This document shows, piece after piece, positions 1 through 4,461 of a stretch of 4,461 bases of DNA (position 1 is its first letter; every line of letters starts with the position of its first letter). A program made the position numbers and the translations under genes. The stretch comes from Naegleria gruberi. Taxonomy: Eukaryota. The notes beneath the pieces were generated by a model. That model ran no database searches. It saw only the letters and a list, made by a program, of their open reading frames with translations, and had not been told where the DNA came from. The stretch is from assembly GCA_000004985.1 (NCBI GenBank), contig GG739185.1; one strand, 5' to 3'.

Positions 1-1032
1 TTCATGAAAAAGTGTCTAGTTAATGGTGAATTGCCACCAATTATTATGGTATCTAGTGACAATGACCACAAGTTTGCACCATCAAACCGTAAAGGGCAAG
101 TTCGGATGGCGTTTTTGTGGGAAATATTTAATCTTGATGTTTTGATACATAGTTCCTATGCACCAAACTGTAGTAAGTATAATCGTGTAGAGAGAGAAAT
201 GGCACAACTGTCTAAAGTTTTAATAGGACATGTTGATTTAGACAGAAAACCCTTTGGAGAAGATAAAAAAGCAAAGCAAAAGAATGCTAATGCTGTGCTT
301 GAGAAGTTGAAGGAAATTTTTTTAAGAGCAGGCCCAAAGTATTTTGTAAATTCTGCAAGTGTCTACCAAACAGAACGTACACCTTTGCTTGAACATTGGC
401 CTACATTTGAGGAGATTGATTTATTTTTAGAAGGAAAGAATCAAGATGATGAAAAAATCAAAAGTTTGTTAAAAAAAATTCACACTCACTCCGAGCAAGG
501 AAATGGATTGAATCTTTTTGTTCTGAGAAAATGTGATGATCCAACATGTTGTTCACCAAAAAGAGCATCCAAATATTGGGAAATTACTAGTAGCTTTGGT
601 GGTTTTATTCCAAGTCCACTCATAGATCCTACTCGCTCCAACGAAAAGAATGAACATTTTTATTCCTATGAAGACAGAAACAAAATTTCAGGAGTTCAAA
701 TGGATGTCGACTTTCCTAGTTTGAAAGGAAATGCTGCTACTTGTGGCAAATGTAATAGAAGAATTCATTCTGAAATAGATAGGAAAATTCATGAAAATAT
801 TTGCCATCCAACAAGAACGGATTTGTTATTGGATGCTGATATTTCTTTGGAAGACAAAATATCATCTCCTGTTCCAACAGGAACAAAAGGGAGATCTTTA
901 GCAAAGCATTATTCTAACCTCGTAGAACAAGCAAAACAGAATGCACTAATTGAGGTTGAACGTGAACAACAATTAATCCAAAATTTAAACAACCCACAAC
1001 CACTGATTAGAAGAAAGAACAAAAAGAAATAG
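1..1032 (+). CDS. Hypothetical protein, 5'-partial; single C-terminal C2H2-type zinc finger plus a Cys cluster (CDDPTCC) and a basic NLS-like tail (RRKNKKK); stop TAG at 1030-1032
   Basis: The supplied ORF is 4..1032, but codon 1-3 (ttc) is in frame and not a stop, so the ORF is open at the window edge. It is 343 stop-free codons in AT-rich DNA and its composition looks protein-like. Zinc-finger pattern C-x2-C-x12-H-x4-H (CGKCNRRIHSEIDRKIHENICH) sits at nt 742-807. It is followed by an A/T-only spacer containing an AATAAA hexamer. I recognise no family-level homology by eye. Confidence 0.55.
   Translation, partial: FMKKCLVNGELPPIIMVSSDNDHKFAPSNRKGQVRMAFLWEIFNLDVLIHSSYAPNCSKYNRVEREMAQLSKVLIGHVDLDRKPFGEDKKAKQKNANAVLEKLKEIFLRAGPKYFVNSASVYQTERTPLLEHWPTFEEIDLFLEGKNQDDEKIKSLLKKIHTHSEQGNGLNLFVLRKCDDPTCCSPKRASKYWEITSSFGGFIPSPLIDPTRSNEKNEHFYSYEDRNKISGVQMDVDFPSLKGNAATCGKCNRRIHSEIDRKIHENICHPTRTDLLLDADISLEDKISSPVPTGTKGRSLAKHYSNLVEQAKQNALIEVEREQQLIQNLNNPQPLIRRKNKKK
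742..807 (+). other. C2H2-type zinc-finger motif (C-x2-C-x12-H-x4-H) inside the first ORF
   Basis: Direct reading of codons tgt ggc aaa tgt ... cat gaa aat att tgc cat. The spacing fits the classical C2H2 consensus C-x2-4-C-x12-H-x3-5-H. There is a single finger only. Confidence 0.5.
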
Positions 1033-1145
1033 AAAATATTTATTAATTATTTTATTACAACTAAATTAAATAATTTAATATAATTTAAATTAAATAAAGT
1101 TAAAATTAAATTAAAATAAATATTAATTTTATTTTTTTTTTAATT
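1033..1145. repeat. A/T-only low-complexity spacer with reiterated AAATTAAAT-like units and a T9 run
   Basis: There are only a handful of G/C bases across ~110 bp. The units ctAAATTAAATaa, ttAAATTAAATaaa and aaATTAAATTAAAAtaa recur. This pattern is typical of intergenic DNA in extremely AT-rich eukaryotic genomes. Confidence 0.6.
1092..1097 (+). terminator. AATAAA polyadenylation-signal-like hexamer ~60 nt 3' of the first ORF's stop
   Basis: Sequence match only. Such hexamers are frequent by chance in A/T-only DNA. A second AATAAA overlaps the second ORF's stop at 1840-1845. Confidence 0.2.
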
Positions 1146-1178
1146 CAGTGCCGAAACCCCCCACCCCTATGCGTGCTG
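1146..1178. other. Isolated GC/C-rich cluster GTGCCGAAACCCCCCACCCCTATGCGTGCTG at the boundary of the A/T-only spacer; function unknown
   Basis: There is an abrupt switch from ~0% GC to a ~65% GC island containing C6-A-C4 (G4TG6 on the minus strand). It is followed at 1185-1201 by the CCGTCTC..CCAAGG motif that recurs at 2063-2074. Confidence 0.5.
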
Positions 1179-1844
1179 TATTTTCCGTCTCTTCCCCAAG
1201 GATGGATTCTTCACTTACAATATTTTATAAGGTTATTAAGGGGGAATTATACTCATGATGATATTGTGTATTGTGAAAAAGTATTTACAAAATTTCAATC
1301 CATTTTTACATATTGTTTTGGCAAAGATAATTGCCAATTTCCGAATTATCATTGGGCAACACACATTTTTGAAGATTGTGTACTTTTTGGGGATGTTACA
1401 TGGTTTTGGGTGTTGATTTTTGAATTGAAACATTCTGAATTCAAACAATTTAATGATAGAAGTAATAACAAATTACTTGAAGTTAGAGGGTTGCAACATG
1501 AAGTTGGAATGAATACATTATTTGCAGATTATCCATTTACAAGACGATTAGTTGGTAAAACACTTGATGTTGCTAGAAAATCATCACTTAAGGTTGGAAT
1601 GTATATTCAATTCGATAGATTTATTGGGAAGATATCTCAATTAGGGGATAATGTTGTTTGTTGTGATGAAATTTTTACGCTTGGAGAGTTGTGTTATGTA
1701 TCATTAATGTACAAACTATTCATTCACTCAGTTGCCACTTCAGTAATTCCTCTTTCAAAGATTAATAGTGTGTGCAGTGTAATCAGATTTCCAGGTCTTA
1801 TTGCTCTCAATCAATTTTCATTCTGTATGAATTATTACCAATAA
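1173..1844 (+). CDS. Questionable hypothetical protein (223 codons from a GTG; internal in-frame ATG at 1509 would give 111 aa); F/W/C/Y-rich N-terminal half
   Basis: At roughly 6-7% stop-triplet frequency, 224 consecutive stop-free codons in AT-rich DNA are unlikely by chance. The minus strand is closed. However, the start is GTG and implausible for a eukaryote, the first in-frame ATG is far downstream, and the N-terminal half (FTYCFGKDNCQFPNYHWATHIFEDCVLFGDVTWFWVLIF) looks like translated T-rich non-coding DNA. The region 1509-1844 (MNTLFADYPFTRRLVGKTLDVARKSSLKVG...) is more protein-like. Confidence 0.3.
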   Translation: MLYFPSLPQGWILHLQYFIRLLRGNYTHDDIVYCEKVFTKFQSIFTYCFGKDNCQFPNYHWATHIFEDCVLFGDVTWFWVLIFELKHSEFKQFNDRSNNKLLEVRGLQHEVGMNTLFADYPFTRRLVGKTLDVARKSSLKVGMYIQFDRFIGKISQLGDNVVCCDEIFTLGELCYVSLMYKLFIHSVATSVIPLSKINSVCSVIRFPGLIALNQFSFCMNYYQ

Positions 1845-2136
1845 ATACTGGCAATAATTTTCAGTTAATTAATTTCAAAATAAAACAGTAATAAATAATC
1901 TAATAAAAACTGTAATTTTTATTCGTAATAATTCACATAATTTTATTAAAATTCTTCACGTCATAATATCTAATGTAATACTTCCATAATTCAAATCCGT
2001 AATTAAAAAAAAATATTTTTTGCCAGAATTTTGCGATAATAATCCACAATTAACCATAATAGCCGTCTCCAAGGTTGTTTTCTTCTCTAATTTTGGCTTC
2101 CTCTTCTGGGGTGAAATCGCTAGCATATTATGAGAG

Positions 2137-2159
2137 TATAAACATTTTCATTTTATATA
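2137..2159 (+). promoter_or_regulatory. TATAAA (2137-2142) and TATATA (2154-2159) elements downstream of a pyrimidine-rich tract (2075-2108)
   Basis: Sequence motifs only. They lie ~430-450 bp upstream of the 2591 ATG, which is far for a compact genome. They could serve an unannotated transcript or be chance matches in AT-rich DNA. Confidence 0.2.
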
Positions 2160-2496
2160 GAGACAATTATTAAAATAATCATTATCATTATCAACATGAT
2201 CATGAGCCAATGATTAGATGGAAACCTTGAAGAATGTTGGAATCTACACGCTTCAATATTAATGCATTGTAAGAACATTGGTCCATCATTTTCAAATTAT
2301 TATATTTATCATTTTTCGAAAAAAATATGGTCATCAACAGAGGTTCATTATTTGATGTGTTATTTGCATTGATTCTTGGAATGTAATAAATTTACTAGTA
2401 CTGAAGAAAATTAGAAATCGATTTTCGGTACGATCACACAATTCATATTACAATCGGGTGATGATGAAATTAATGCAGTTTTTGTGATTTTGAAAA

Positions 2497-2511
2497 TTTT
2501 GGCGCCATTTT
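2497..2511 (+). promoter_or_regulatory. E2F-like site TTTTGGCGCCATTTT (core TTTGGCGC) ~85 bp upstream of the recombinase ATG
   Basis: Matches the TTTSSCGC E2F consensus and is centred on the palindromic GGCGCC. It is the only GC-rich 8-mer in this 750-bp spacer. Short motif, not validated. Confidence 0.2.
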
Positions 2512-2590
2512 AACAAAGCCTTTCTACTAATAATTCAAATAGGAATGATAAAATTCCACCACAAACTATTTTAAAATCAAAAAAAACAAC

Positions 2591-4461
2591 ATGACAGATT
2601 CCAATCAAGATTATCACAGTCCTCCTTATGGAGAAGATGATTCAATTGATGAGGATGAGGAAGACTTGATCATTGAACAATTTCTAGCCTCTGAAGAAAT
2701 TCTCTCTGAAGCAGACATTTACATGGAGAATGATAAGGAAGTTGAATTTCTTCTAGAGCAATGTCAATACATTCAACCATCTCTCAACAAGCCTTTGGAA
2801 AATGAGGAGTTTGGAAACATGTCAAGTCAATTGGATCCATCCAACCTTGGTGCATCTTTTGGTACTGCTGCTGCTGCTACTGATAGTGCTAATGCCAACA
2901 AGGCTTATAGTAGACGAATCATCAATAGTAGTGATTATTATGAAGCTTATCAACAACTTCAAGCTAATAGCAAGGCTATGGAAGTATGGAATCCTCCACT
3001 TGAATTGCCTCCTCCTATTGACGAAAACCATACTGCTCTTATTCTCAACTCAAAGGATGATTCTAGAAAGGAAGTTTTATTCGAGGCTTTGTTTAATCAC
3101 ATTCCCTCCAATGAAATCATGCATCAATTCGTCAAGTATATAGGTGCAGAACAAGTCTTGCAAGATTTATTCTCTGTAATTGCTATCAATTCTCTCAATG
3201 ATCCTTCTCTCTTACCAAAACTGGTCGAGCAAATCAATTCCTTAGAGAAGAAGAGAAATACACAAGACAGTCTAATTTCTCAAGATTTAGAGAAACTTAT
3301 TCTTGGATACAATAGAAGAGGTGGAACATCAATTATTAGAGGTCGTAGAAGAGAAGAATATCAGCAAATGATGGATGAAGCAGCACCCTCACTCGAAGGA
3401 CTAGTTGGCGAAGAATTAATGAAAAGGAGAAATGAAATCTTTCAAAAAATTAAAAATGAAGTGTCAATCAGTGAGAGAACAAGGAGAACCTTTATGACTG
3501 GTGTTAAGAATTACTTGGCATACTGTATAGACAATAATGTACAGCCTTTTATTGCAACTGAAAATCCCAAATACAAAGGTATTGTCAATGAGATAGCCTT
3601 CAACTCATGGGCTCTATTTCTTACAGAACCAATTAATGGAAAGATTTACAAATTCAATACAGTTCTAGGCTATGCCAGAGGACTTCGAAGATGGTGCGAT
3701 AGAAATGGATATCAAAATTGTCTTCTCCCTAAAACCACAGAGTCTCTAGACCTCGCAAAAGCAGTTTCTAACATTGTTAATACTGAGGAAATAAGGGCTG
3801 CCATTATCATACCATATGAAATTTTTAGAATGGTACTATCTCTGCCACCAACAGAAACTGGTTTAAGACTCAGAGCAAGACTTCTCATTCAATACTTGAC
3901 AGGGTCTCGACCTTTTTCTATTGATTGCGTCAAAATCAAGAACCTTACCATTAGACATGTCATTAACCCAACCAAGAATACAATAGAATCATTCTCACTC
4001 GATATTTTCTATGAACATGACAAGACAACTGAAGAGTGTTATAGAACTCAAAGACTCTACTCTTTCCCTGTTCTTAGATATTGTCCAATACTCATGCTTT
4101 TAGAATATTTGGCTTTGAGAGGAATTTTCAAAAGTGGTAACTTGGAGTCATGTTTGAAAAATTGTGACTTTTCTATTAAGGAAGAATGTTTGGAAATGCA
4201 TTTATTCTCCTCTATTGGAAATGGTTTTGTACCTCACAATTTGAGTCAATTTGCTAAAGAAATTACCAATTCTAGATTATTTGTTGGAATTCAGCAACAT
4301 ATTGTTCCTTATAGTATGAGAAGATCTGGAGCTACATGGGCTGCTGTGCAAATCATGATCCAACACCAAAGTTTAAAGGTTGACGAGTTTGAATTAATCA
4401 TTCGTTGGTATGGATGGAAGTTAACACCAGGTAACAATGTCTATCGTCGTTATGTTGACAA
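2591..4461 (+). CDS. Tyrosine recombinase / integrase (Cre-phage-integrase superfamily), 3'-partial (>=623 aa), with a long acidic low-complexity N-terminal extension
   Basis: Hand translation from ATG 2591 in frame 2 to the window end gives 623 codons with no stop. The ORF is absent from the supplied track only because it has no in-window stop. The start context is aaaaaaaacaacATGa (A at -3). Ordered motifs: SxxTxxxYxxxL core-binding-like helices at aa 294-380; box I LLIQYLTGSRPFSIDCVKIKNL (R440; compare Cre TLLRIAEIARIRVKDI); PTKNT (K462); box II PYSMRRSGATWAA (R577; compare Cre GHSARVGAARDMA); RWYGW (W609); NNVYRRYVD (Y618, W-to-Y spacing 9 as in Cre GGWTNVNIVMNY). The alternate-frame ORFs 2802-3143 (+) and 2822-3031 (-) overlap it and are rejected. 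Confidence 0.85.
   Translation, partial: MTDSNQDYHSPPYGEDDSIDEDEEDLIIEQFLASEEILSEADIYMENDKEVEFLLEQCQYIQPSLNKPLENEEFGNMSSQLDPSNLGASFGTAAAATDSANANKAYSRRIINSSDYYEAYQQLQANSKAMEVWNPPLELPPPIDENHTALILNSKDDSRKEVLFEALFNHIPSNEIMHQFVKYIGAEQVLQDLFSVIAINSLNDPSLLPKLVEQINSLEKKRNTQDSLISQDLEKLILGYNRRGGTSIIRGRRREEYQQMMDEAAPSLEGLVGEELMKRRNEIFQKIKNEVSISERTRRTFMTGVKNYLAYCIDNNVQPFIATENPKYKGIVNEIAFNSWALFLTEPINGKIYKFNTVLGYARGLRRWCDRNGYQNCLLPKTTESLDLAKAVSNIVNTEEIRAAIIIPYEIFRMVLSLPPTETGLRLRARLLIQYLTGSRPFSIDCVKIKNLTIRHVINPTKNTIESFSLDIFYEHDKTTEECYRTQRLYSFPVLRYCPILMLLEYLALRGIFKSGNLESCLKNCDFSIKEECLEMHLFSSIGNGFVPHNLSQFAKEITNSRLFVGIQQHIVPYSMRRSGATWAAVQIMIQHQSLKVDEFELIIRWYGWKLTPGNNVYRRYVD
2865..2878 (+). repeat. (CTG/GCT)4 trinucleotide repeat inside the recombinase N-terminal region (encodes AAAA)
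   Basis: Direct reading: actgctgctgctgctact. It lies in the Ala/Ser/Asn-rich low-complexity stretch GASFGTAAAATDSANAN. Confidence 0.7.
3470..3730 (+). other. Putative N-terminal core-binding (SAM-like helical) domain of the recombinase (aa ~294-380)
   Basis: SERTRRTFMTGVKNYLAYCIDNN ... TVLGYARGLRRWCDRNGY resembles the S-x-x-T-x-x-x-Y...L..F / RaLsaLrsFfkyl helices of phage-integrase N domains. The alignment is by eye only. Confidence 0.35.
3890..4461 (+). other. Tyrosine-recombinase catalytic domain (aa ~434-623): R440, K462, [H571/Y574], R577, W609, Y618
   Basis: See motif list above. Codon positions: R440 cga 3908-3910, K462 aag 3974-3976, R577 aga 4319-4321, W609 tgg 4415-4417, Y618 tat 4442-4444. 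The domain is truncated by the window edge 5 codons after the presumed nucleophile. Confidence 0.75.

What the first reader, a model, noticed from the sequence alone, without database searches (positions are those of the whole stretch)
1..4461. Candidate three-gene cassette on one strand: zinc-finger protein, small ORF and recombinase; element boundaries lie outside the window
All three ORFs are co-oriented and intron-less, and are separated by non-coding spacers of ~140 bp and ~750 bp. A C2H2/NLS protein next to a YR would be an unusual accessory for a Crypton, where a single ORF is typical and a GCR1_C DNA-binding domain is sometimes fused to the YR. No RT or RNase H signature (YxDD) is present, so this is not a DIRS/Ngaro retroelement. 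If the three are a unit, this may be an undescribed YR-element architecture.
Basis: inference. Interest (0 to 1): 0.6.

Follow-up and report, generated by a model that had tools for sequence, protein, structure and literature searches.

The report
Naegleria recombinase gene beside unrelated neighbours
The three reading frames are real but are not one mobile unit: only the third, a tyrosine-recombinase gene of a small Naegleria-specific Crypton-like family, is the element. Its left edge lies inside the window, directly against a broken-off tail of the housekeeping gene Skp1.

Summary
The window is a whole 4461-bp Naegleria gruberi contig. All three co-oriented ORFs exist and are far longer than chance allows. 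ORF1 is cut by the left contig end. ORF2 has no start codon. ORF3 is cut by the right end three codons after its catalytic tyrosine.

ORF3 is a genuine two-domain tyrosine recombinase with no RT. Its only relatives are in N. lovaniensis, N. fowleri and a few metagenome contigs. None has an ORF1 or ORF2 homologue within 10 kb.

ORF2's only homologue sits at a different N. lovaniensis locus that has no recombinase. ORF1 has no detectable homologue. The cassette reading is therefore not supported.

Between ORF2 and ORF3, on the minus strand, lies a Skp1 C-terminal fragment (2050-2118), followed one base later by CTAGCAT. In N. lovaniensis two head-to-tail recombinase units abut the last ten codons of RPS23. 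Their junction carries a second, purely synonymously diverged copy of those codons, again followed one base later by CTAGCAT.

My favoured but unproven model is a Crypton-like element that integrates into the 3' ends of housekeeping genes and carries a replacement tail. The main rival is a resident or domesticated gene with local duplications.

The parts
1..1032 (+). ORF1: 3' part (343 codons) of an orphan gene, open at the contig's left edge. Annotated as N. gruberi EFC35497.1 / D2W603. Not part of the recombinase unit.
   Evidence: The only hit among 5.8 billion clusters is itself. There is no significant similarity to the ORF upstream of ORF2's homologue.
43..228 (+). Weak DDE-transposase-like stretch in ORF1 (SSDND ... 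SKYNRVERE).
   Evidence: Pfam PF07592 DDE_Tnp_ISAZ013, E = 0.069, 12.6 bits, below the 26.9-bit cut-off, profile positions 183-244 of 308. The motif reading rests on my memory of ISAzo13-type transposases and is unverified. tblastn against plasmids found nothing. The AF2 model was unusable (pLDDT 38).
742..807 (+). C2H2-like pattern CGKCNRRIHSEIDRKIHENICH in ORF1.
   Evidence: Regex match. It is not called by Pfam at E <= 1.
1033..1172 (.). Spacer of 15% GC with TAAAT-type tandem repeats.
1137..1844 (+). ORF2: start-less open frame, homologous to N. lovaniensis C9374_010212 (P0013). Not part of the recombinase unit.
   Evidence: E = 1.6e-42, 39% identity, 93% coverage. The first in-frame Met is at codon 125. 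Its AT skew (-0.11) is opposite to that of ORF1 and ORF3. The homologue's locus L005 has no recombinase.
1845..2049 (.). AT-rich non-coding stretch lying 3' of the Skp1-like stop codon. Under the favoured model it is host DNA downstream of Skp1.
   Evidence: No similarity to any fetched locus. The host-DNA assignment is inferred.
2050..2118 (-). Skp1 C-terminal fragment DFTPEEEAKIREENNLGDGYYG plus stop, with no Skp1 body upstream of it.
   Evidence: Pfam PF01466 Skp1, E = 2.2e-5, 24.7 bits, above the 22.3-bit cut-off, profile positions 31-45 of 48. PDB Skp1 chains are the top hits. No other Skp1-like segment occurs in the window. The same FTPEEEAKI peptide, with 5 of 27 bases different and all changes synonymous, lies 338 bp upstream of the recombinase ORF in L002.
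2120..2126 (+). CTAGCAT: candidate left terminus or core of the recombinase unit. Its reverse complement ATGCTAG could alternatively be read as a splice acceptor.
   Evidence: It occurs once in the window and once in the 23-kb L001. In each case it starts two bases after the last base of the host-gene-like fragment.
2119..2590 (+). Upstream non-coding region of the recombinase unit (472 bp).
   Evidence: The comparable distance is 451 bp in N. lovaniensis copy 2 (13365 to 13816) and 338 bp in L002 (8149 to 8487).
2591..4461 (+). ORF3: first 623 codons of a long tyrosine-recombinase protein (acidic N-terminus plus two-domain YR), cut by the contig end. Annotated as EFC35499.1.
3368..4461 (+). 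YR core-binding and catalytic domains. Candidate catalytic residues are R (TGSRP, 3899-3913), K (EHDK, 4013-4024), YxxR (YSMRR, 4310-4324), W (YGWK, 4409-4420) and the nucleophile Y (RRYVD, 4445-4459).
   Evidence: Family alignment and coordinates. The AF2 model has a core pLDDT of 70-90. The top 36 Foldseek hits in the PDB are all tyrosine recombinases: XerH, Cre, IntI, XerA, Flp.

Best explanation
The window is a juxtaposition, not a cassette. Bases 1 to about 2049 hold two unrelated gene remnants. ORF1 is the tail of an orphan gene, possibly transposase-like. ORF2 is a start-less copy of a gene that elsewhere follows a different ORF.

At 2050-2118, on the opposite strand, lies the severed C-terminal tail of Skp1. 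From about 2119 onward begins a separate single-gene unit. It consists of 472 bp of upstream DNA starting with CTAGCAT, then a long tyrosine-recombinase gene that continues past the contig end. By homology the full protein is about 1300 aa.

The recombinase belongs to a small, very divergent, RT-less (Crypton-like) family known only from Naegleria and a few environmental contigs.

Proposed mechanism (inferred, not shown): the recombinase excises the unit as a circle and integrates it site-specifically into the last codons of a conserved housekeeping gene. That gene is Skp1 in this lineage and RPS23 in the N. lovaniensis/N. fowleri lineage. The element carries a short copy of those codons, so the interrupted gene keeps a complete reading frame. 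The displaced or duplicate tail is left at the other end of the element or between tandem copies. On this reading ORF1 and ORF2 are simply what lies on the host side of the left junction.
For: Separate histories of the three ORFs:
- There are no ORF1 or ORF2 homologues within 10 kb of any recombinase homologue.
- ORF2's only homologue is at a locus without a recombinase.
- ORF1 is unrelated to that homologue's upstream partner.

Recombinase identity:
- R/K/YxxR/W/Y residues are conserved across the family.
- All top fold hits are tyrosine recombinases.
- UniProt labels the N. lovaniensis homologues 'Tyr recombinase domain-containing'.
- There is no RT.

Boundary and host-gene tails:
- The Skp1 tail scores above Pfam's cut-off.
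- It recurs, with only synonymous differences, upstream of the recombinase in an independent species.
- In N. lovaniensis two head-to-tail units (95.6% identical) end 30 nt inside RPS23. Their junction carries a second KGKKEKPRN-stop tail.
- Six of the nine tail codons differ, all synonymously, against pS = 0.10 in the adjacent recombinase ORFs (binomial p about 3e-6).
- The RPS23 body prefers AAG over AAA by 14 to 2, whereas the tail fused to it uses AAA four times.
- N. lovaniensis and N. fowleri RPS23 differ at 5 of 33 tail bases against 11 of 405 body bases (Fisher p = 0.004).
- CTAGCAT occurs once per locus, at the same offset from the tail, in both species.
- The distance from tail to ATG is similar in the three loci: 472, 451 and 338 bp.
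Against: - No second copy, empty site, circular junction or right end is available for N. gruberi. Mobility is therefore not shown.
- The N. fowleri and N. lovaniensis copies are syntenic next to RPS23. The N. fowleri one keeps only the C-terminal extension as an intact 537-aa ORF. Both N. lovaniensis copies are under purifying selection (dN/dS about 0.25). This looks as much like a resident or domesticated gene as like an active element.
- The N. lovaniensis tail duplication could come from a segmental tandem duplication followed by gene conversion of the ORFs.
- The window's Skp1 tail lacks the conserved Trp of Skp1 C-termini, and the L002 fragment matches over only nine residues.
- The tail excess between species is weaker if only synonymous sites are counted.
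- The CTAGCAT coincidence is one 7-mer in two loci (about p = 5e-4). It is imperfect and displaced in L002 (CTGGCAT, 19 nt away).
- The recombinase model has a mean pLDDT of only 55.
Confidence: 0.55

Rival explanations
1. Resident or domesticated recombinase gene. The YR gene is an old, immobile Naegleria gene, or a domesticated Crypton. The Skp1 and RPS23 tail fragments are by-products of ordinary local segmental duplications and rearrangements next to convergent neighbours. ORF1 and ORF2 are just neighbours.
For: - The gene is syntenic next to RPS23 in both N. lovaniensis and N. fowleri.
- The ORFs are intact and under purifying selection.
- N. fowleri retains the C-terminal extension alone as an ORF.
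- The family is tiny and low-copy in all databases.
- Domesticated Cryptons are well documented (PMC3212892).
Against: - All catalytic residues are retained.
- The gene has different genomic neighbours in different lineages: a Skp1 tail versus RPS23.
- A frameshifted pseudogene copy exists in L002/L003.
- The two RPS23 tails are far more diverged than the flanking duplicated ORFs, yet encode the same peptide.
- The CTAGCAT motif is shared at both boundaries.
- Two independent cases show a unit boundary falling inside the last 10-23 codons of a housekeeping gene.
Confidence: 0.25
2. ORF1 (zinc-finger or transposase-like), ORF2 and the recombinase form one composite element whose ends lie outside the window. 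This would be comparable to MarCry-1_FO, in which a mariner DDE transposase and a Crypton YR travel together.
For: - The three ORFs are co-oriented on a tiny unplaced contig.
- ORF1 has a weak DDE-transposase-like hit.
- A DDE plus YR composite has a precedent (PMC3212892).
Against: - The ORFs do not co-occur in any relative.
- ORF2 is start-less, and its homologue has a different partner.
- A host-gene fragment and a conserved boundary motif lie between ORF2 and ORF3.
- ORF2's base composition differs from that of the other two ORFs.
Confidence: 0.1
3. Intron-resident element. The recombinase unit sits inside an intron of Skp1, in antisense orientation. ATGCTAG, the reverse complement of CTAGCAT, is the 3' splice acceptor, and the Skp1 'fragment' is the gene's functional last exon.
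For: - Reading ATGCTAG|C GAT TTC as a phase-2 acceptor completes an AAC (Asn) codon. This gives NDFTPEEE, which is the Skp1 consensus.
- The same reading in L001 gives TG|G AAG, that is W-K-G-K, as in N. fowleri RPS23.
Against: - In N. lovaniensis the RPS23 gene reads straight through to its stop codon without any splicing, and the element lies beyond that stop.
- An intron of more than 4.5 kb would be very long for Naegleria (my general knowledge).
- No upstream Skp1 exon is visible.
Confidence: 0.1

Closest known systems
Crypton DNA transposons (YR-only eukaryotic elements; Goodwin et al. 2003; Kojima & Jurka 2011, PMC3212892)
   Same: A single long ORF encodes a tyrosine recombinase with a retained R-K-(H/Y)xxR-(H/W)-Y set. 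There is no RT and no terminal inverted repeats are detectable. A lineage-specific C-terminal extension follows the YR, as in CryptonF and CryptonS. Presumed circle-mediated integration at short shared sequences.
   Different: There is no Pfam hit to Phage_integrase, DUF3504 (CryptonA) or GCR1_C (CryptonF). The protein is much longer, about 1300 aa. The family is very low-copy. The unit boundary falls inside the last codons of a housekeeping gene, with a duplicated coding tail of 30-70 nt, rather than the 4-6 bp terminal direct repeats of Cryptons. Phylogenetic placement among Crypton groups was not tested.
Bacterial integrative elements (prophages, ICEs, genomic islands) whose attP carries the 3' end of the target gene
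   Same: The proposed logic is the same. A YR integrates into the 3' end of a conserved gene and the element supplies a replacement tail. Tandem head-to-tail copies carry an att-like site between them.
   Different: The host is a eukaryote. The targets are protein-coding housekeeping genes (Skp1, RPS23), not tRNA or tmRNA genes. No excisionase or cargo is seen. The mechanism is inferred only from junction sequences.
MarCry-1_FO (Fusarium oxysporum composite of mariner DDE transposase and Crypton YR)
   Same: A DDE-like ORF and a YR ORF lie on one strand of the window.
   Different: In MarCry the two genes lie between shared TIRs and are repeated together. Here they never co-occur in relatives and are separated by a host-gene fragment.
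Domesticated Crypton-derived genes (QRICH1, ZMYM2-4, KCTD1, Gcr1/Cbf2)
   Same: Low copy number, syntenic conservation between two species, and purifying selection. QRICH1 appears among the fold hits (rank 37).
   Different: Domesticated copies have usually lost catalytic residues. This family keeps them all. It also includes a frameshifted pseudogene copy and sits in different genomic contexts.

Membership tests
Tyrosine recombinase superfamily | Two-domain fold (core-binding plus catalytic) with the catalytic R, K, H/YxxR, H/W and nucleophile Y | tested here: met
   The family alignment conserves GxR(P), (H/E)DK, YSxRRSGATW, YGW and R(R/K)Y. The top 36 Foldseek PDB hits are XerH, Cre, IntI, XerA and Flp, E 4e-5 to 1e-3 over about 350 columns, although the model's mean pLDDT is only 55. 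Sequence profiles find nothing: no Pfam Phage_integrase hit and no PDB hit.
Crypton | Encodes a YR but no reverse transcriptase or RNase H | tested here: met
   Pfam gives no RT or RNase H hit on ORF3, P0003, P0008 or the N. fowleri ORF. No Y.DD motif occurs in any frame of the window. The 4.7-kb N. lovaniensis unit holds only the one ORF.
Crypton | Mobile and multi-copy, with short (4-6 bp) terminal direct repeats and no TIRs | not testable with these tools
   The N. gruberi genome cannot be searched here. Only one annotated copy exists. No TIR-like repeats were found in the window. The right end is outside the contig.
CryptonA (DUF3504) / CryptonF (GCR1_C) | Pfam DUF3504 in the YR region, or a GCR1_C domain C-terminal to the YR | tested here: not met
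   Neither family is reported at E <= 0.1 to 1 for ORF3, P0003 or P0008.
DIRS/Ngaro/VIPER YR retrotransposons | RT/RNase H ORF alongside the YR, with split or inverted terminal repeats | tested here: not met
   No RT or RNase H is found in the window or in the full-length homologues and their flanks.
   tblastn of ORF1 and ORF2 against every recombinase locus is negative. tblastn of ORF3 against ORF2's homologous locus is also negative. Copies within N. gruberi could not be examined.
Integrative element targeting a gene's 3' end | The element boundary lies inside the target gene's terminal codons, with a second copy of those codons at the other junction | tested here: inconclusive
   This is met in form in N. 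lovaniensis (RPS23). It is half-seen in the window, where the Skp1 tail marks the left junction only. No empty site, circular form or right junction for N. gruberi is available. A tandem segmental duplication is not excluded.
Skp1 (fragment at 2050-2118, minus strand) | Match to the Pfam Skp1 dimerisation domain above the curated cut-off | tested here: met
   PF01466, 24.7 bits against a cut-off of 22.3, E = 2.2e-5, covering only the last 15 profile positions. It is a fragment, not a gene.
C2H2 zinc finger (ORF1) | CxxC-x12-H-x3-5-H, recognised by the zf-C2H2 profile | tested here: inconclusive
   The spacing pattern is present at aa 248-269. No Pfam zinc-finger family is reported at E <= 1.
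ISAzo13 / Zator-type DDE transposase (ORF1) | Significant match to the DDE catalytic domain | tested here: inconclusive
   PF07592, E = 0.069, 12.6 bits, well below the 26.9-bit cut-off. There is no NCBIfam hit, no plasmid tblastn hit and no PDB hit. The structure model was unusable.

The most novel reading that the evidence does not exclude
This would be a previously undescribed kind of eukaryotic tyrosine-recombinase element. It integrates site-specifically into the last codons of essential housekeeping genes (Skp1, RPS23) and carries a synonymous 'spare tail' that restores the interrupted reading frame. That would be the eukaryotic counterpart of bacterial islands that insert into, and rebuild, the 3' ends of tRNA and protein genes. 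The window would then show its left attachment junction, with CTAGCAT as the conserved element terminus.
Probability: 0.35. Interest if true: 0.75.

Novelty: new variant of a known kind. Interest (0 to 1): 0.45.

Why it matters

What remains is a very divergent, RT-less tyrosine-recombinase family in Heterolobosea. I found no report of it in the searchable literature.

If the gene-tail junctions reflect integration, this would be a rare eukaryotic case of target-restoring, site-specific insertion into essential protein-coding genes. It would give a concrete system (a defined recombinase plus a defined site of about 30-70 nt) for studying how Crypton-type elements choose and repair targets, and possibly a new eukaryotic site-specific recombinase.

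If instead the gene is domesticated, it adds a protist example of Crypton domestication in which the catalytic residues are retained.

Tried and rejected
- Word-index homology searches for ORF1 and ORF3 returned only the query itself. The full HMMER search gave six clusters for ORF3.
- Pfam and NCBIfam gave nothing significant for ORF1, ORF2, ORF3 or the L005 ORFs.
- PDB sequence searches were empty or insignificant.
- Metagenome and viral scans for more recombinase relatives found none. The degenerate-pattern scan gave one chance bacterial hit, L006.
- From motifs I suspected that ORF2 together with the L005 upstream ORF is a CMC/KDZ-type DDE transposase. No profile supports this, so I do not claim it.
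- I tested whether ORF1 is homologous to that upstream ORF. It is not (BLASTP E = 0.8; Smith-Waterman z = -0.15).
- The single-sequence AF2 model of ORF1 was useless (pLDDT 38), so no fold search was run on it.
I reached N. fowleri through the cluster listing instead.
- Repeat, tandem-repeat, Rfam and tRNA scans of the window showed no TIRs, no RNA genes and no tRNA target.
- A processed-pseudogene origin for the Skp1 tail was considered. No poly(A) tract follows its 3' side.
- I could not obtain any Naegleria Skp1 gene, or the N. gruberi RPS23 locus, for an empty-site comparison.

Full report
**Provenance and observation**

The window is an entire 4461-bp contig of Naegleria gruberi. ORF3 matches EFC35499.1 ('predicted protein, partial') and ORF1 matches EFC35497.1. 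Both have a longest contig of 4461 bp.

Three + strand ORFs exist, separated by spacers of 140 and 746 bp. With a per-codon stop probability of 0.078, their open lengths have chance probabilities of 8e-13, 5e-9 and 1e-22. Three qualifications apply:
- ORF1 is open at base 1.
- ORF2 (open 1137-1844) has no ATG before codon 125.
- ORF3 runs off the right edge.

ORF1 has a CxxC-x12-H-x4-H pattern (nt 742-807) and a basic tail, but no Pfam zinc-finger call. No Y.DD motif occurs in any frame, and there is no RT or RNase H profile hit.

**ORF3 is a tyrosine recombinase of a tiny, divergent family**

A full HMMER scan of 1.84 billion representatives found only five other clusters.
- Two adjacent N. 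lovaniensis proteins of 1007 and 1305 aa, which UniProt labels 'Tyr recombinase domain-containing'.
- A frameshifted copy on two metagenome contigs (L002, L003).
- Two more distant environmental proteins.

The alignment conserves GxRP, (E/V)HDK, PYSxRRSGATW, YGW and R(R/K)Y(V/M/I)D. In the window these lie at 3899-3913, 4013-4024, 4310-4324, 4409-4420 and 4445-4459.

An AF2 model of aa 260-623 is mediocre (mean pLDDT 55, catalytic core 70-90). Even so, its 36 best PDB matches are all tyrosine recombinases over both domains. QRICH1, a Crypton-derived protein, ranks 37th.

Sequence profiles (Pfam Phage_integrase, DUF3504, GCR1_C; PDB) do not detect the protein. Homologues continue about 650-700 aa beyond the catalytic Tyr with no recognisable domain. 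The window therefore holds less than half of the gene.

**The three ORFs do not travel together**

tblastn of ORF1 and ORF2 against every recombinase locus (10-kb flanks where available) is negative.

ORF2's only homologue is P0013, N. lovaniensis C9374_010212, at 39% identity over 93% of the query. It lies at the start of another contig (L005), 146 bp downstream of a 492-aa Cys-rich ORF, and there is no recombinase nearby. That upstream ORF is unrelated to ORF1.

ORF1 has no homologue. Its only lead is a sub-threshold hit to the ISAzo13-type DDE domain over the region holding the third catalytic residue (E = 0.069). I could not strengthen this lead.

ORF2 also differs in strand composition from ORF1 and ORF3.

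A DDE plus YR composite has a precedent (MarCry-1_FO, PMC3212892). Nothing here shows such a unit.

**A host-gene tail marks a boundary inside the window**

On the minus strand, 2050-2118 reads DFTPEEEAKIREENNLGDGYYG followed by a stop codon. This matches the extreme C-terminus of the Pfam Skp1 domain above its curated cut-off (24.7 against 22.3 bits, E = 2.2e-5). Skp1 chains are the top PDB hits. No other Skp1 segment is present.

In the independent, highly diverged locus L002, the same nine residues FTPEEEAKI lie on the minus strand 338 bp upstream of the recombinase ORF. They differ at 5 of 27 bases, all at synonymous third positions. The surrounding DNA is otherwise unalignable.

**The N. 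lovaniensis locus gives the clearest anatomy**

Two head-to-tail units are present: 9834-13364, which is 5'-truncated, and about 13365-18037. They are 95.6% identical over 3.1 kb and lie between ordinary host genes.

The right-hand unit's similarity ends 30 nt inside the convergent RPS23 gene. The junction between the units carries a second KGKKEKPRN-stop. The two tails differ at 7 bases in 6 of 9 codons, all synonymous. The flanking recombinase ORFs, by contrast, have pS = 0.10 and dN/dS about 0.25.

The RPS23 body uses AAG over AAA for Lys by 14 to 2, yet the tail fused to it uses AAA four times.

Against N. fowleri RPS23, the tail differs at 5 of 33 bases and the body at 11 of 405 (Fisher p = 0.004). 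The excess is weaker if only synonymous sites are counted.

Immediately after each host-like tail comes one base and then CTAGCAT. This 7-mer occurs exactly once in the window (2120-2126) and once in 23 kb of L001 (13366-13372). L002 has CTGGCAT 19 nt from its fragment.

The distance from tail to start codon is 472, 451 and 338 bp in the three loci.

**Interpretation**

The simplest account of these recurrent junctions is that the recombinase unit begins at about 2119 in the window. What lies to its left is the host side. I favour a Crypton-like element that integrates into the terminal codons of housekeeping genes and carries a coding 'spare tail'. This is the logic of bacterial islands that rebuild the 3' end of their target. 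Tandem copies would then keep an att-like tail between them. This is inference, because no excision product, empty site or right junction is available for N. gruberi.

**Counter-evidence and rivals**

In N. fowleri, a 537-aa ORF lies at the syntenic position, convergent on RPS23. It is 59% identical to the C-terminal extension only, and the YR domain is gone.

Together with the purifying selection and the very low copy number, this fits a resident or domesticated gene. On that reading the RPS23 tail copy arose by tandem segmental duplication, perhaps with later gene conversion of the ORFs. I give this 0.25.

The reverse complement of the motif, ATGCTAG, can also be read as a phase-2 splice acceptor. 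This reading completes Asn-Asp-Phe-Thr-Pro for Skp1 and Trp-Lys-Gly-Lys for an N. fowleri-type RPS23. It suggests an intron-resident element. However, N. lovaniensis RPS23 needs no splicing. I give this 0.1.

The three-gene composite gets 0.1.

**Novelty**

I found no report of Cryptons or other YR-only elements in Naegleria. One survey listed uncertain, degenerate DIRS-like sequences in N. gruberi (PMC3266345).

The family fails the domain markers of CryptonA and CryptonF. It is best called a new, divergent variant of the Crypton kind, with a possibly new targeting mode.

Noticed in passing
L007 8839-10452 (N. fowleri VFQX01000029.1), minus strand: N. fowleri keeps only the roughly 540-aa C-terminal extension of the recombinase protein as an intact ORF, convergent on RPS23. 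This suggests that the extension has a function of its own, or that a domestication is in progress.
   Followed up: partly
L004 1-30 (Logan SRR31579443_29555): The contig carrying the distant recombinase homologue P0006 starts with a (CCCAAA)n telomere-like repeat, about 600 bp upstream of the gene.
   Followed up: no
L010 2496-2569 and L011 2067-2139: A tRNA-Ile(AAT) gene lies about 150 bp downstream of another distant relative (P0007), whose YR region is split over several reading frames (GHSMRKGCAT..., YIGW...KLYID).
   Followed up: no
L005 78-2469 (N. lovaniensis PYSW02000041.1, contig start): ORF2's homologue follows a 492-aa Cys-rich ORF containing VMLIYVDDF, FLWD and CSRC motifs. These reminded me of CMC/KDZ-type DDE transposases, and ORF2 has an H-x3-H ... 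FE-x2-H ... SNNK stretch. No Pfam or NCBIfam profile supports this.
   Followed up: partly
L005 3626-5098 and 5700-10232: Two neighbouring ORFs share an identical N-terminus of about 480 aa, with an XXXX gap in the first. This is probably an assembly duplication.
   Followed up: no
window 1033-1172: A spacer of 15% GC made of TAAAT / AATTAAAT-type tandem repeats. It ends in a T-run plus CAG that looks like a 3' splice site just upstream of ORF2's open frame.
   Followed up: partly
window 1137-1844: ORF2's coding strand is T- and G-rich (AT skew -0.11), unlike ORF1 (+0.14) and ORF3 (+0.06). An ATG at 1169 lies in a different frame from the homologous region, which suggests a frameshifted start.
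   Followed up: partly
L002 8487-11233 and L003: The environmental recombinase copy has the same frameshifts in two independent assemblies, around the first catalytic Arg region. It is therefore a genuine pseudogene.
   Followed up: partly
window 2392-2489 (+) and 1657-1759 (-): Weak C/D-box snoRNA-like Rfam matches far below the gathering scores (27.5 against 70 bits; 21.9 against 55 bits). These are probably chance.
   Followed up: no
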